From assembly GCA_040437565.1 (NCBI GenBank), contig JBDOQK010000055.1, positions 186,001 to 235,772 on the forward strand: a stretch of 49,772 nt of DNA. Direction: 5' to 3'. Origin of the DNA: Albugo candida. Lineage: Eukaryota. Numbering within the stretch: position 1 is the first letter of the stretch; every line of letters starts with the position of its first letter. Below, in pieces: positions 5,933 to 37,713 of this stretch. A model generated the notes under the pieces. It worked only from the letters and a program-made list of their open reading frames with translations, did no database searches and was not told where the DNA came from. The position numbers and the translations under genes were made by a program.

Positions 5933-7435
5933 GTGATTTGCACCCAATCATCATTTCCCATTTCTCAGGCACCAAAATACACCAAAATGGATCGTGTACC
6001 GTGGACTGCCGCGATGTTTTGCTACATTCAAATCGCTATTTTACTGACTATTGGACATATACGAGACTTCTTTGGACGTTTATCTGGTTCTTCTCGTTAT
6101 AAGAGCGCTGTCACTAAGCCTGGTTTTGCGAAATTACTGTTAGCCTGGGAGAATTTTTATACGAATCGCATCTATCATCGCGGTCAAGATGTCTTTAATC
6201 GACCAGTTGCGAATGCGCCCGGAGCGTATATTGACGTCATCGAGCGCTATTCAAACGACGGCAACCGAACGCTACAAAATAAAGCCGGATGTGTGAAAAA
6301 ATGCGTCAATTTGGGTTCGTACAATTATCTCGGATTCGCCGATGACTGGATGAGTACCTGCAGTAAAGATGTCTTCCAAACAGTCCAGCGCTTTGGATTA
6401 GCGTCTTTATCATCGGCTATGGAATTTGGTACAACTACAATTCATCGTGAGCTTGAAGAGGAATTTGCAAAGTTTATTGGTAAACCTGCAGCACTTGTGT
6501 ATAACATGGGATTTGCCACGAACGCTACCACCATTCCCGCGTTGATGAGTAAAGGGAGCTTGATCGTCAGTGACAGCTTGAATCACAGCTCAATAGTCAA
6601 TGGAGCAAGAGCCTCGGGGGCACACGTGGTGGTATTCCGTCATAACGATGCCAAACATCTTGAGCATACACTACGCATGAAAATTGCCCAAGGACAACCA
6701 CGCACACATCGAGCCTGGAAGAAAATCATGGTCATGGTCGAAGGTATTTATTCTATGGAAGGTGAAATTGTACATCTACGCGATATCGTTGATGTTGTCA
6801 AGAAGTACAAAGCGTACATATACGTCGATGAAGCTCATAGTATCGGGGCTCTTGGGCGTACTGGACGAGGGATCTGTGAATACGCTGGAGTAGACCCCAA
6901 TGAGATTGATATATTAATGGGGACCTTCACCAAAAGCTTTGGTGGAATGGGAGGATACATCGCCGCATCCGAAGAGATTATTTCGTACATTCGCACTGCA
7001 AGCGCTGGATCTGTGTATGCCGCGAGTCTATCACCTGTGGTCGCACAGCAGGTTCTGACATCGCTGAAAATCATTATGGGTACTGATGGAAGCGATTACG
7101 GAAGAAAGAAACTCGATGCTCTCCGTGAAAACAGCAATTATTTCCGCCAACAGCTCATGAACATGGGTGTGGTCACTTTGGGAAATTTCGATTCTCCAGT
7201 GATTCCAGTAATGCTGTTCTGTTTATCAAAAATTCCAGAATTCTCACGCCAATGCTTGGAACGTAATTTGGCTGTTGTTACAGTGGGTTTCCCAGCGACA
7301 CCACTTTTACTGTCCCGAGTTCGCTTTTGCATTTCGGCAGCTCATACCAAAGAAGATCTTGACAAAGCTCTGAAACAAATTGAAGAAGTCAGCAGTAACT
7401 GCAATATCCGATACTTGAAGAGCTGCATGGGCTAA
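5933..7435 (+). CDS. LCB2: Serine palmitoyltransferase catalytic subunit (LCB2/SPTLC2)
   Basis: 500-aa uninterrupted ORF with NLGSYNYLGFA, SDSLNHSSI, VEGIYSMEG, DEAHSIGALG and the PLP-lysine motif GTFTKSFG. First in-frame ATG is at 5987; the true start is uncertain. Confidence 0.95.
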   Translation: MICTQSSFPISQAPKYTKMDRVPWTAAMFCYIQIAILLTIGHIRDFFGRLSGSSRYKSAVTKPGFAKLLLAWENFYTNRIYHRGQDVFNRPVANAPGAYIDVIERYSNDGNRTLQNKAGCVKKCVNLGSYNYLGFADDWMSTCSKDVFQTVQRFGLASLSSAMEFGTTTIHRELEEEFAKFIGKPAALVYNMGFATNATTIPALMSKGSLIVSDSLNHSSIVNGARASGAHVVVFRHNDAKHLEHTLRMKIAQGQPRTHRAWKKIMVMVEGIYSMEGEIVHLRDIVDVVKKYKAYIYVDEAHSIGALGRTGRGICEYAGVDPNEIDILMGTFTKSFGGMGGYIAASEEIISYIRTASAGSVYAASLSPVVAQQVLTSLKIIMGTDGSDYGRKKLDALRENSNYFRQQLMNMGVVTLGNFDSPVIPVMLFCLSKIPEFSRQCLERNLAVVTVGFPATPLLLSRVRFCISAAHTKEDLDKALKQIEEVSSNCNIRYLKSCMG

Positions 7436-31752: not shown

Positions 31753-32073
31753 GCAATTGACTCTCAGTTGCATTGGATAGAAATCTTGAGCAAGACAAAG
31801 AGCGTACAGAGCGTTAGCTCACTAGGACAATATAACGTTTCTTGATTTGCTCTATACAATAAGTACGAATCCTTCAGAGAATAGCACTATTGCTTGCACC
31901 TCCTACAAAGTCGAGTTTAGTACACGGGATTTCAGAAGTAAATATGCGGACTGCACATGCTTTTTGATAGGAATAAGTAGAAGAGGACGTTGATATCATA
32001 TTATAGAGGTAGGCTTGAACGATGGATTAAAGTTAAAGCGCCAAGTGCATTTACTCGCGCCAAAAAAGAAGCA

Positions 32074-33006
32074 ATGGTAATGTGCATAAAGTGTTTGTGC
32101 TTGAGACTGACTTGAATGTGAAAATTAGTCTACAACTCCATCTCAAGAGAATGTCATTACGCTTAAAGGTTCTACAGAGCTTGTAGCGGAATTTTTCCAT
32201 TACGGAATCAATAGGTTCCGTCTTGTACTCTATTACGGCTATAACCATTTACGTGTACACATTATAGCATCTTATATCAACGAGGTATCTATCCAGCAGA
32301 AACCTTTAAGCAAGAAGTACAATATGGTCTCAATATGGTCGTCACCGCCGATGAAAAGCTCGATCACTTTTTATCAACATTCTTGCAGCAATTATCTGGT
32401 CCGTTCATCCATTTCCTTGCGCTTGCTTTTCGATCAATTACAAGCCAATTTTTGAAGATTGGGCATCAAAATGTCAAGTACAGAAAGTGGTATTAGTGAT
32501 AACCGGCGTCGAGAGCAAGGAAGTACTGGAACGATGGGTTTTCGATGTTCAGACTCCGCTTCATTTAGAAAGGAATCATTCAGAGTGAGTTCAATCTCAA
32601 ATTTTAGCTGGCTGGCTCATCATCCCTGACATCGTTGCCTAAGATCTAGTCAACAATCGTCACAGAGAAAAGTCAAAGCACGTAAAGCGATTGTATCTGA
32701 AATTCAGGCTGTGATCAGGCAGATAACAGCTAGCGTATCGTTTCTTCCGCTTTTGCATGAGCCAAGCACTTTTGATCTATTAGTCTATACGAACAAAGAT
32801 TCCAATGTCCCAGCGCTTTGGGAAGAATCAGATCCGCGATATGTGAAGAACTCCGCTCAAGTTCGATTGCGGTCTTTTGATACAAATGTAAGTTGTGATA
32901 AGACCTTTTTGTTATATGAACTCTAACTTTCACTTTCTGCTTCTATCAGGTTCATAAAATAGACGCTTTTGTTGCGTACAAGAATCCAGATGAGAATAAT
33001 GCTTGA
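32074..33006 (+). CDS. MAD2: Spindle checkpoint HORMA protein MAD2, multi-exon
   Basis: ITLKGSTELVAEFFHYGINSILYQRGIYPAETF, VLERWVFDV, EIQAVIRQITASVSFLPLL, FDLLVYT, WEESDP, VRLRSFDTNVHKID. The first coding exon appears to be the ATG alone. Confidence 0.95.
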
Positions 33007-33033
33007 ATGAATGAAATGAGTGCTGTCCCCAAA

Positions 33034-33680
33034 TTACTTTGTTTTCTTGATCTCTTTCTTGTCGAACGATTTCAATATTGTGCGAAACGCGGTTTCAAAC
33101 CCTTTTTGATCAAAATATCCTTCATAATCGAAAAAATCGCCAACATACAATTTCTTCTCAGCTTTTCTTTGTCTTTTGTGGTCTTGAATGACCACACTAT
33201 AGTGATCGTCACCCACGCGAAAGCTCGTTTGTACAAAGATTGGTCCCTCTCCATTCTATAAAACATTCTGTCAGCGCGTGCGCGTCAAAATTGCATCAGA
33301 TAGTCACCTTGGTGTAATACTCAAAGAGTTTGTCACCATTCCAATAGCTCATACAAAGTAATACTCCTTGCAAAAAGAAAAAAGTGGCAACGCATCCAAC
33401 CGTAATTATTGCTTCGGTTATGTACTGATAGCCTTTGAAGAAGTGGGCAATCGCAGCAATCGCACAGGAAAGTGTTAATAGAAAAAGTTTGAAATTGTCG
33501 GCTTTGTAATCGATAGTAAATCTGGAATCATCGCCGACAATGTCTTTGACTGTATCGTCCAGCAAATTCTTGACTGCGCATTGGTCGCCGGTCTCGGTAT
33601 GTTCAGGATCTATTCACAGCGATTATCAATGTCGCACGAGAACGATATAAAGCCAACAGCAAACCTTTCTGTTTGCTCAT
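33034..33680 (-). CDS. SPCS2: Signal peptidase complex subunit 2 (SPC25 domain), 3 exons
   Basis: TGDQCAVKNLLDDTV, two hydrophobic segments, and C-terminal VGDFFDYEGYF. Confidence 0.8.
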
Positions 33681-33955
33681 TTCGTTGAAAAGGGGCGAAA
33701 GCAATATGAGGCGATGTATTTAAACCAATGAATACGCACGAGTTTGAGATTTGAATATGACTTCTTCGACGCAAAATCGATATGACAATTGTATCTCTTT
33801 GAAAGAGAATATCAGCCGCTTGGAAAGTAATGGAAAGGAAGTGGTTAGCTCTTTTGAAAAAGAAGATGTATCCCGTACGGTTTGTGTCTATTTGATGTGA
33901 TTTTGCTTTGGTGACGCGAGATAGAACAATAGGCTTTGGACGATCAAATGCGGTG

Positions 33956-34749
33956 ATGAAGAGAAAAGATGTCGGTCCGAGTACAGAGGGCAAAGAAACG
34001 AGGAAGAAAAGGTAGCAATTTATTATTTTAATGCGAAGATACGCTCGAAATGGCTTTTTGGATATACTTTAGACGCGTTCTGGGTGACATCTCCAATCGG
34101 CAACCAAACTCCGCTAATACAGAGAAGACTCGAAAGGAGATAGAAAAACCAAAACGTGTAGATGATATACAATCGATGAAAGAAAAGAAATTCGGGGTAT
34201 CACAGCCAAGCCCAACAGCACTTGATCTCAAGCAATCCAAAGTCACTGATACGGCTCCAAGGAAATCGAATATGGGAAGCATTGTAGAAGAGGTAGTTAG
34301 AATTAGCAACTATGTTCCATTGTATTTAAGTAATCTTCCAGGATGAAGTCGAATTTTCAGCTGGCGGGCTATCTCCACTAGAAGACGTCGATGATGACTT
34401 GAAGCTTCTTGAAGATGAGATTAAAGCTTCTTTAGAAGAATGCAAAGATGAATTTTGGGATTTTGTATCAAAAACAGGCGATGATGGAGAAGCCGCTAAA
34501 GTCATTGATCCTGACTTTGCTAGAGAGGCTGGACAAAGTCCATTACCCGAAATTGACCAAGGTCCCTGCATTCTGATGTCCTGATCTGCATTACCTTTCA
34601 TTGTGTTGGATACTGTAGATGAAATCACCGATGACGATCTCGAAGCACCAGATACTTATGCCGACAACTTTGTCGACGATGTACAAAGTCAGTTTTTCGG
34701 CAGAATACGATGTGACCCAATTGTCGCAAAAATTGTCGACAAACAGTAG
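33956..34749 (+). CDS. D-box-containing protein with a basic N-terminal half and an acidic C-terminal half; securin-like candidate; 4 exons
   Basis: Frame-consistent GT-AG splicing (introns 34012-34072, ~34293-34341, 34562-34618) gives KKRRVLGDISN ... EEDEVEFSAGGLSP ... SPLPEID. The gene is well supported; its function is inferred. Confidence 0.6.
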
Positions 34750-35456: not shown

Positions 35457-36132
35457 TCATAGGACATGTCCGATAAGGAACGCATAATTGTATACATCGT
35501 TATCTTTACTACATAATGCATTTTTGACCAAAGGTTTTTTGCTCAAAAAGACTGGGTTTCTTTCGTTATGATCCCAGGCATGTGTATACCTTGCGTATAG
35601 TATACAGTCCTGGTGTATTTTTGTTACAGTATAAATATCCTGATCTATTTCTGTGTAATCTCTAATTAGAAAAGTGGCATGAGTGTCATGAAAGTTATCA
35701 ACGTCAAGAAAGGCTATTTTGTCATAAAGGTAATCGGATGTGAAACCTATAAATTGGATGGGAGATTTACGTCGAAGCGAAGTGATGCTCTTCAAGAAGG
35801 AAAAGAGTGGCCACTAGGGAAGTATCGATGAGATCCAACACAACACACCTGTGAATTGATGAAACGATACGGTACTTTTCATCAAACAGTCTGNNNNNNN
35901 NNNNNNNNNNNNNNNNNNNNNNNNNNNNNNNNNNNNNNNNNNNNNNNNNNNNNNNNNNNNNNNNNNNNNNNNNNNNNNNNNNNNNNNNNNNNNATGAGAT
36001 CCAACACAACACACCTGTGAATTGATGAAACGATACGGTACTTTTCATCAAACAGTCTGTCTCATCAGACCCCTGACTTTAGGCTCAGCCTAAAGACGCG
36101 AAGAGAACACTGAGAAGCATAAAACCAAACAT
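35457..36132 (-). pseudogene. Pseudogene of a secreted protein
   Basis: ATG 36132 gives MFGFMLLSVLFASLG*A*SQGS, which continues in frame (after collapsing the gap overlap 35828-35893 = 35994-36059, one more stop) into ORF 35457-35795. Confidence 0.45.
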
Positions 36133-37149
36133 TTTTCCGCAAATAATGGAGCGTGTAAAATGTCTGTAGACGTGGCCTTTCACAGAAGTTGATACTTACG
36201 ATTGATTTCGTAGATGACTTGCGAGTAAAAAGGTAAGGCATGTGTCACTGAAAATCGTGTGCGGAGCGAATTAAGCATCCCTTGGGCATGTCTCGCTTGA
36301 TTGCTCTTCCGTGAAACTGATTTGTGCTGAATCACAATTGCGCCCATTACCGAGTCAGCATCTTCTGCCCATTTGCCGAGTCATTTTTATCACCCACTAG
36401 AGTCTTTTAGATTTCTTGACTCATTGCGTGATCCATCGTCCTAGCAGACCGGTTGCTTGTGGCTGATAATCACATGAAAATGTTTGGGTTTTTAAATCGT
36501 TGCGCCGACATGCATCTTGCAGGAGGCTAGTTGTTTGGCTTCCTAAGTAGCTTATTGCGATCAACAGCTCAGCAAGCAGAACCTTTTTATATCTATGAGA
36601 CCACAGAAACTTGCGTGATCTCAATGACAATTATACTGTCCAACGGCATCACATGCTTCCCACCCCACCCTGTGATCTACCATATGAAGCTTATAATGCT
36701 CTTGGGTACAGTATCATGCTCTATAATGTCCCACCGTGCTCTAGAATGTCGCACCGTGCTCTATAGTGCTCATTCACGGTCTATATAGGGCTCGTGTTCT
36801 ATGCGGCAAATACCACGTCCTCATGTTTGCAGGCGCGATCCCCGGTCTATTGCTCGAAGATTATCATCCAGCAACATGGGTATTAATATAATCTAATATC
36901 TGGTAAAGTATTCTCGTAAGAGAACTTTGGAGAACTTTTAGCTCAGAGCATCCCATAATTAGGCGAAGGGAGAAGGAAACATCGCAGAATTGGACGAAGC
37001 CTGAGGACAAAAACGTAAGTGCTTTGCTACTCTATAACAAAAGAAAGGCAGGAAATCTAAGGCGCAAGTAGATGTTAGGTATAGCTGACTTTCTGAATTC
37101 TTTCTGGTTAAATTGTGCAGTGTCAAAGTGAGAGGGCTCTACAAACAGG

Positions 37150-37166
37150 TCATTTGCAAATTTTCC
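37150..37166 (+). promoter_or_regulatory. Oomycete-type INR/FPR core promoter
   Basis: TCATTTGCAAATTTTCC about 20 nt upstream of ATG 37186. Confidence 0.6.
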
Positions 37167-37185
37167 AGCTATTGTAACATCGCAT

Positions 37186-37713
37186 ATGATCTCCTCAGCA
37201 TTTGTTTTCTACACATTTTCACTTTTCGCGTCTTTAAATGCGTGGCAGCGGTCGCAGGAAACTAAAATAGTTCCAACTTTCCGAGACCAGCTAGACAATC
37301 TGGTGTGTGGTGACATCAAAGTAAATGTGTCTTACGGGAAGTCAAAGAAAGAAATATGGGTTGGAATTGGATGCGTGATATATTCCACCGGCCTGCAAGA
37401 TCCCAAATGTGAGATCGCTTTCCTAGCAATCATGCAATCTGTATTAGACAACATCAAGCCCGGCATTGACGTGATGAAACCTGAAATTCATGACGTAGCA
37501 GCGGTACTACACTATTTATTCCCAACCCATGGTTACACTTGGCAAAATATGTATAGTCGTACCTCCAGGGAACAAATCAAGAACCTGATACACTACCGAC
37601 ACTCGTATGATTTTGAATGGGTGGGCTATGTAGATGGCTTGGTCAAAAGTCAGAACTCTAAATTCCTCATGTTGCTGCTTCTTTACTTGGCGTTGCATTG
37701 TCAAGTGGCGTGA
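37186..37713 (+). CDS. Intronless secreted protein (candidate effector), paralog B
   Basis: Signal-peptide-like MISSAFVFYTFSLFASLNA; shares C..(F/L)..(I/L)..S(V/I)L, D....LH..FP....T(W/F) and W...(V/L)..L....N..F...LL motifs with paralog A. Confidence 0.7.
   Translation: MISSAFVFYTFSLFASLNAWQRSQETKIVPTFRDQLDNLVCGDIKVNVSYGKSKKEIWVGIGCVIYSTGLQDPKCEIAFLAIMQSVLDNIKPGIDVMKPEIHDVAAVLHYLFPTHGYTWQNMYSRTSREQIKNLIHYRHSYDFEWVGYVDGLVKSQNSKFLMLLLLYLALHCQVA

What the first reader, a model, noticed from the sequence alone, without database searches (positions are those of the whole stretch)
33956..34749. Candidate oomycete securin (separase inhibitor): D-box, EVE pseudo-substrate and LPE motifs
Seen: a 4-exon gene of about 200 aa missing from the ORF track as a whole, with a basic low-complexity N-half carrying RVLGDISN, then EEDEVEFSAGGLSP, an acidic C-half and SPLPEID. 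Known: securins (PTTG1, Pds1, Cut2, plant PATRONUS) are too divergent for ordinary similarity search. They share an N-terminal RxxLxxxxN D-box, and the animal and fungal ones have a (D/E)IE pseudo-cleavage motif lacking the P1 Arg; human securin also has an LPE separase-docking motif. Inference: this may be an unrecognised stramenopile securin. I am not aware of one being described but cannot check the literature.
Basis: partly seen in the sequence, partly recalled or inferred. Interest (0 to 1): 0.75.

Follow-up and report, generated by a model that had tools for sequence, protein, structure and literature searches.

The report
Candidate securin of white-rust oomycete
This unannotated gene of the oomycete Albugo candida encodes a largely unfolded protein with a convincing cell-division destruction signal and a look-alike of the site cut by separase, so it is a plausible but unproven securin, the brake on chromosome separation.

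Summary
The gene is real but longer than reported: five exons, 255 aa, start at 33757. All four introns appear as joints in contigs of two runs from one study, and the product equals an NCBI 'hypothetical protein' of Albugo candida. The extra exon adds a KEN ahead of the D-box. The D-box (RRVLGDISN) has the same LGD form as the genome's two best cyclin-box genes: 3 of 31 pattern hits. EVEFSA mirrors two predicted cut sites in this genome's own Scc1 (DVEIAR, DIEQAR) without the P1 arginine. Co-folding residues 132-185 with pieces of Albugo separase gave only weak support: 0.41 against 0.00 for controls, no interface shown. Against: no ortholog found, so conservation is untested; no Pfam securin match; LPE lies 61 residues after P1, not 11-14; KEN sits in a predicted helix. 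APC/C substrate about 0.9, securin about 0.6. A 2025 preprint already calls securin widespread; its supplement was not visible. The scan noted securin candidates in other genomes before, not this gene.

The parts
33757..33874 (+).
   Evidence: Joint 33874-33933, GT..AG, in X1 and X2; in-frame stop 4 codons upstream; model identical to P0001
33802..33810 (+). KEN (residues 16-18), possible KEN box; lies in a predicted helix
   Evidence: helix 4-40 with pLDDT 81-87 over residues 11-30; chance 0.10
33933..34011 (+).
34073..34292 (+). Coding exon 3; basic, disordered linker
34010..34097 (+). D-box RRVLGDISN (residues 66-74); the R66 codon is split by intron 34012-34072
   Evidence: same LGD form as the two best cyclin-box genes
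34342..34561 (+). Coding exon 4; acidic, with predicted helix 151-187
34345..34362 (+). EVEFSA (residues 141-146), candidate P6-P1 pseudo-substrate with Ala at P1
   Evidence: compared with own-genome Scc1 sites; inside the piece co-folded with separase
34372..34383 (+). SPLE (residues 150-153), partial look-alike of the NxLx-phi-E docking motif and a minimal CDK site
   Evidence: motif definition from PMC10317155 passages; the resemblance is my inference
34543..34551 (+). LPE (residues 207-209), 61 residues after P1
   Evidence: not part of the co-folded piece
34619..34749 (+). Coding exon 5 with stop codon

Best explanation
The gene encodes the Albugo securin. Shown: a spliced, single-copy, 255-aa protein, basic then acidic, with no predicted globular fold and a cyclin-grade D-box. 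[quoted passage not shown] At anaphase APC/C reads the D-box (perhaps also KEN), ubiquitinates the lysine-rich linker, and destruction of the protein frees separase.
For: Order KEN, D-box, then a Glu patch is the layout reported for securins of five clades (PMC6690013 section 9). D-box form shared only with the two best cyclin-box genes, 3 of 31 pattern hits. EVEFSA matches the [D/E/S]-phi-E-x-x-R consensus minus R (PMC12609080) and parallels the 2 such sites in the genome's Scc1 middle exon, DVEIAR and DIEQAR; it is 1 of 5 [DES]-phi-E triplets in the protein. 138 of 255 residues have pLDDT under 50, pTM 0.21, D-box and most of EVEFSA in low-confidence coil. The genome has a separase with intact His and Cys motifs. 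Co-folding: weak support, median 0.41 (0.41, 0.34, 0.62), best of 3 controls 0.00, contacts agreeing at least 44%, partner pLDDT at least 44; the mark was reached by 51 of 78 solved complexes and 2 of 108 mismatches, but at 0.60 or under by only 5 of the 78 and by all 4 mismatches that passed, of 180.
Against: No ortholog: only the protein itself among 1013 candidates at E<=10, only two fragments of itself among 1.84 billion representatives, none in metagenomes. No Securin (PF04856) match; no PDB match for the whole protein. LPE is 61 residues after P1 against 11-14 in securins (PMC6858450); the residues at that spacing are not LPE. KEN lies in a confidently predicted helix and arises in 10% of shuffles. 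A 37-residue helix (151-187) is predicted right after the pseudo-site. The co-fold used a separase in three pieces without alignments, may reflect memory of solved securin-separase complexes, is uncalibrated for disordered peptides, and none of its controls was chosen as an acidic disordered peptide. Atlas neighbours were an unnamed ascomycete cluster (0.90) and cyclin N-terminal fragments; no securin cluster was listed.
Confidence: 0.6

Rival explanations
1. A lineage-specific APC/C substrate with another job (spindle, kinetochore or replication-licensing regulator) that uses its two helices, 4-40 and 151-187, to oligomerise or bind a partner. EVE and LPE are by-products of an acidic composition.
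For: Only the D-box is far beyond chance. Two confident helices are predicted. No securin similarity is detectable.
Against: No family match for geminin, shugoshin or others in Pfam at E<=10. Weak co-folding pass with separase over three zero controls. EVEFSA parallels the genome's Scc1 sites.
Confidence: 0.22
2. An APC/C pseudo-substrate inhibitor in the manner of Acm1, Mes1 or OSD1 (families recalled), which occupies Cdc20 or Cdh1 through KEN and D-box.
For: Small, disordered, carries KEN and a strong D-box.
Against: No ABBA-pattern match; the C-terminus is not an IR or MR tail (tail rule recalled); KEN is 48 residues from the D-box and in a helix; 17 lysines in residues 19-135 suit a ubiquitinated substrate. 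It leaves the acidic half unexplained.
Confidence: 0.1
3. A remnant or N-terminal piece of a cyclin gene that lost its cyclin box.
For: Atlas feature hits ranked 2 and 3 are cyclin fragments, 0.89 and 0.88; the D-box resembles the cyclins'.
Against: 0 of 21 Cyclin_N matches lie on this contig. The protein search of the genome lists only the gene's own exons and one E=0.38 hit, none at the cyclin loci. The spliced contigs run through a normal stop and end 80-140 bases later.
Confidence: 0.04

Closest known systems
Vertebrate securin (PTTG1; Pfam PF04856; PDB 7NJ1)
   Same: Disordered protein with N-terminal degrons followed by an acidic-hydrophobic-Glu pseudo-site lacking the P1 Arg (human EIEKFFP, PMC6858450); a PL[DE] stretch follows a few residues later.
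   Different: No Pfam or PDB similarity. LPE is 61 residues after P1 instead of 11-14, which is the 50-100 range reported for substrates. A long helix is predicted after the pseudo-site.
Plant PATRONUS/RSS1 securin
   Same: KEN and D-box at the N-terminus, then a Glu-containing patch (PMC6690013).
   Different: The plant patches (E-x-F-L-H-D/N-H; W-A-K/R-D/E/G-G-V/I-E) are absent. The paper's supplement has no mention of Albugo, Phytophthora, Aphanomyces or Saprolegnia.
Mitotic cyclins of the same genome (G000:C8 and C13)
   Same: RxxLGD[IV][ST]N D-box after a basic run.
   Different: No cyclin box and no similarity outside the degron.
Sororin
   Same: Short, disordered, vertebrate form has a KEN box (PMC11148194).
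   Different: [quoted passage not shown]

Membership tests
Securin | N-terminal D-box (RxxLxxxxN) | tested here: met
   RRVLGDISN 66-74; strict form in 0.0002 of shuffles; same form as two cyclins
Securin | KEN box upstream of the D-box | tested here: inconclusive
   KEN at 16-18, but in a predicted helix and 10% by chance
Securin | Largely disordered, no globular domain | tested here: met
   AlphaFold2 single sequence pTM 0.21, 138 of 255 residues under pLDDT 50; Atlas model pTM 0.14. Low confidence without an alignment is partly expected for any orphan; two helices are predicted.
Securin | Pseudo-substrate [D/E/S]-phi-E-x-x-(not R) | tested here: met
   EVEFSA 141-146; parallels Scc1 DVEIAR and DIEQAR; low information alone, 1 of 5 such triplets
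Securin | The pseudo-site Glu is invariant among orthologs | tested here: inconclusive
   No ortholog found
Securin | LPE/VPE 11-14 residues after the pseudo-site (vertebrates, some lower eukaryotes; not universal) | tested here: not met
   Offset is 61 against 11-14
Securin | Match to Pfam Securin PF04856 (known to miss divergent securins) | tested here: not met
   the family also found nothing anywhere in the genome, with no positive control
Securin | Binds separase | tested here: inconclusive
   Weak co-folding support, 0.41 against 0.00, no interface given
Securin | Inhibits separase; non-degradable form blocks anaphase | not testable with these tools
   Needs experiment
Cyclin A/B | Cyclin box | tested here: not met
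Sororin | C-terminal K/R-rich stretch plus Sororin domain | tested here: not met
   Acidic C-half by inspection and no Pfam hit
Shugoshin / geminin | Pfam shugoshin or geminin domains | tested here: not met
   No hit at E<=10; Pfam may miss divergent members
Acm1-like APC/C inhibitor | ABBA motif alongside D-box and KEN (pattern recalled) | tested here: not met
   0 matches to the ABBA pattern

The most novel reading that the evidence does not exclude
This is a true securin not yet identified for any oomycete, and it is built as an uncleavable copy of the substrate: a pseudo-site modelled on the organism's own Scc1 sites, a long helix, and an LPE at substrate-like (61-residue) rather than securin-like spacing. 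It would give the first testable separase inhibitor in stramenopiles.
Probability: 0.3. Interest if true: 0.7.

Novelty: new member of a known kind. Interest (0 to 1): 0.5.

Why it matters
Securin was long found only in animals and fungi (PMC3195147) and was then shown in plants (PMC6690013). A verified oomycete securin would extend experimental proof to another eukaryotic supergroup and test the proposal that securin dates to the last eukaryotic common ancestor (bioRxiv 10.1101/2024.01.07.573240). It would also name an unannotated cell-cycle gene in a crop-pathogen lineage. The gain is moderate because the kind of protein is known and motif-based candidates for other lineages may already be listed in that preprint's supplement.

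Tried and rejected
Ortholog searches all came back empty: exon 3 against longer proteins, 1 hit (self) of 83 candidates; whole protein, self only of 1013; HMMER over 1.84 billion representatives, 2 self fragments; metagenome scan, 0 confirmed of 132 pattern matches. Cluster members are Albugo candida records or unnamed near-identical fragments. Synteny: 30 metagenome MAD2 loci held no SPC25 or candidate homolog (best tblastn E 0.47) and 0 of 30 had a strict D-box; none was shown to be an oomycete, so this says nothing on synteny. Atlas with cyclins skipped gave no usable hit; structure hits had TM at most 0.32. PDB search of exon 4 hit only a designed helical protein at E 0.37-1.1. Genome searches with Securin and Sororin_middle profiles rang nowhere, controls included, so they are uninformative. 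A word search for full-length separases found none among 4195 candidates; no spliced record of the middle of the separase gene was found, so the co-fold lacked one 29-codon exon and the N-terminal two thirds of separase. No run is on record as RNA; expression level and start site cannot be read from contigs. Rejected: the protein as a separase substrate, since its only ExxR (EKTR, 83-86) lacks the acidic-hydrophobic lead-in and reads EKTP in other strains. Rejected: meaning in the nearness of MAD2, for lack of any conservation data. Literature searches that found no paper on an oomycete securin: securin+oomycete (129 papers, 20 listed, none on securin by title; the word start also matches 'securing'), securin+separase+stramenopile (1 paper), +Phytophthora (0), any 3 of 6 terms (446, 30 listed), four-term protist search (0).

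Full report
Gene model. Joining five exons from ATG 33757 gives 255 aa, identical to P0001, which NCBI names a hypothetical protein of Albugo candida. A second A. candida record differs at 2 residues and a third has another C-terminus. The gene is single-copy: the DNA search gave 1 match and the protein search only its own exons plus one E=0.38 hit.

Anatomy. Residues 1-135 carry net charge +11 and 136-255 carry -28. KEN is at 16-18, the D-box RRVLGDISN at 66-74, EVEFSA at 141-146, SPLE at 150-153 and LPE at 207-209. AlphaFold2 on the single sequence gives pTM 0.21, 138 of 255 residues under pLDDT 50, and confident helices around 11-30 and 151-180; the D-box is in low-confidence coil, KEN is inside the first helix. 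Pfam gives only DUF6172 at E 0.1, far under its cut-off.

Which motifs beat chance. In 200,000 shuffles the strict D-box appears at 0.0002 and KEN-then-D-box in the first 100 residues at 0.0002-0.001, whereas [DE][IVL]E appears at 0.64-0.70, [DE][IV]E[FY] at 0.03 and LPE at 0.06-0.07; patterns were picked after seeing the sequence. A genome-wide D-box DNA pattern gave 31 matches against 17 for the reversed control, so most are noise or repeats. Only 3 of the 31 have Gly at position 5: this gene and the open frames of the two best Cyclin_N matches, RTVLGDVTN and RGALGDITN (30 of the 31 were translated, the last was read from the match string). The degron is therefore very likely real.

The securin case. 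Securins of five clades share KEN and D-box at the N-terminus and an invariant Glu in a conserved patch (PMC6690013; I read the first 10,000 characters, section 9, passages and one supplement search). Separase cuts at [D/E/S]-phi-E-x-x-R (PMC12609080, passages), and securin replaces the P1 Arg (PMC10317155, passages). The genome has one Rad21/Scc1 locus; its 282-aa middle frame has 3 ExxR sites, 2 of the full form, DVEIAR and DIEQAR, and a later frame has an LPE. These cut sites are predictions. EVEFSA matches them at P6-P4 and in character at P3-P2, with Ala at P1. The genome has a separase on contig C15 with the catalytic His and Cys motifs aligned to yeast and human chains.

Co-folding. Residues 132-185 were folded with three pieces of Albugo separase (421, 308 and 41 aa), without alignments. 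Verdict: weak support. Median ipSAE 0.41 (0.41, 0.34, 0.62), all 3 controls 0.00, contact agreement at least 44%, partner pLDDT at least 44. The mark was reached by 51 of 78 solved complexes and 2 of 108 mismatched pairs, but at 0.60 or under by only 5 of the 78 and by all 4 mismatches that passed, of 180; disordered peptides are untested, and solved securin-separase complexes exist, so the pass may be from memory. No interface was returned, so the position of EVEFSA was not seen. It raises the odds modestly.

Against. The LPE is 61 residues after P1; securins have it at 11-14 and substrates at 50-100 (PMC6858450, passages). It was outside the co-folded piece. Language-model neighbours were an unnamed ascomycete cluster (0.90, 167 of 256 shared features) and cyclin fragments; shuffled proteins reach 0.9 in 4-10% of cases, and no named non-cyclin cluster scored.

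Rivals. A cyclin fragment is unlikely: 0 of 21 cyclin-box matches lie on this contig. Sororin's C-terminal basic stretch and domain are missing (PMC11148194, passages). An Acm1-type inhibitor lacks support from an ABBA pattern (pattern recalled). An unknown APC/C substrate with another role remains the main rival.

Novelty. A 2011 phylogenomic study found securins only in Metazoa and Fungi (PMC3195147, passages). The searches turned up no paper on an oomycete securin. However, bioRxiv 10.1101/2024.01.07.573240 (abstract and passages) reports securin as ancient and widespread, detected through short motifs; its main text names no stramenopile, and its supplementary tables, which I could not see, may list oomycete candidates. 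Earlier notes of this scan describe securin candidates in a marine protist and an arthropod but none for this gene or its neighbourhood; they are unchecked and are not used as support.

Verdict. A real, unannotated, five-exon gene whose product is very probably an APC/C target (about 0.9) and more likely than not the Albugo securin (about 0.6). It works like a securin by layout; membership is not shown. New member of a known kind; interest 0.5.

Noticed in passing
window 33034-33680 (-): Three-exon, 179-aa SPC25 signal-peptidase subunit gene, head-to-head with the candidate; only 76 bases lie between the two start codons, and one contig runs across both, suggesting a very compact shared promoter.
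   Followed up: partly
window about 32030-33010 (+): Spliced HORMA-domain gene (MAD2 by recalled resemblance), a spindle-checkpoint gene about 0.75 kb from the candidate, tail-to-tail with SPC25. Its last intron (about 32888-32950) is spliced in run X2 but read through in X1.
   Followed up: partly
L004 (G000:C15 about 97800-105000, -): The separase gene is annotated in fragments in public records (438, 569 and 229 aa) although the genome holds the intervening exons; a SAP domain is inserted in its protease region (E 1.3e-6).
   Followed up: partly
L072/L073 (G000:C32 140418-142848, -): Only one Rad21/Rec8-family locus was found by both Pfam domains; no separate Rec8 match was listed, in an incomplete assembly.
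   Followed up: no
window 35894-35994; L004 about 6120-6220: Assembly gaps of N are flanked by duplicated sequence on both sides, a recurring scaffolding artefact that breaks gene models.
   Followed up: no
L043, L047, L053, L056, L061, L062, L064, L066: A dispersed repeat family whose translation contains a D-box-like string accounts for 8 of the 31 pattern hits; it looks like transposase remnants (recalled resemblance).
   Followed up: no
window 37132-37713 (+): A 193-codon open frame with a hydrophobic N-terminal stretch and no Pfam match; possibly a secreted protein.
   Followed up: no
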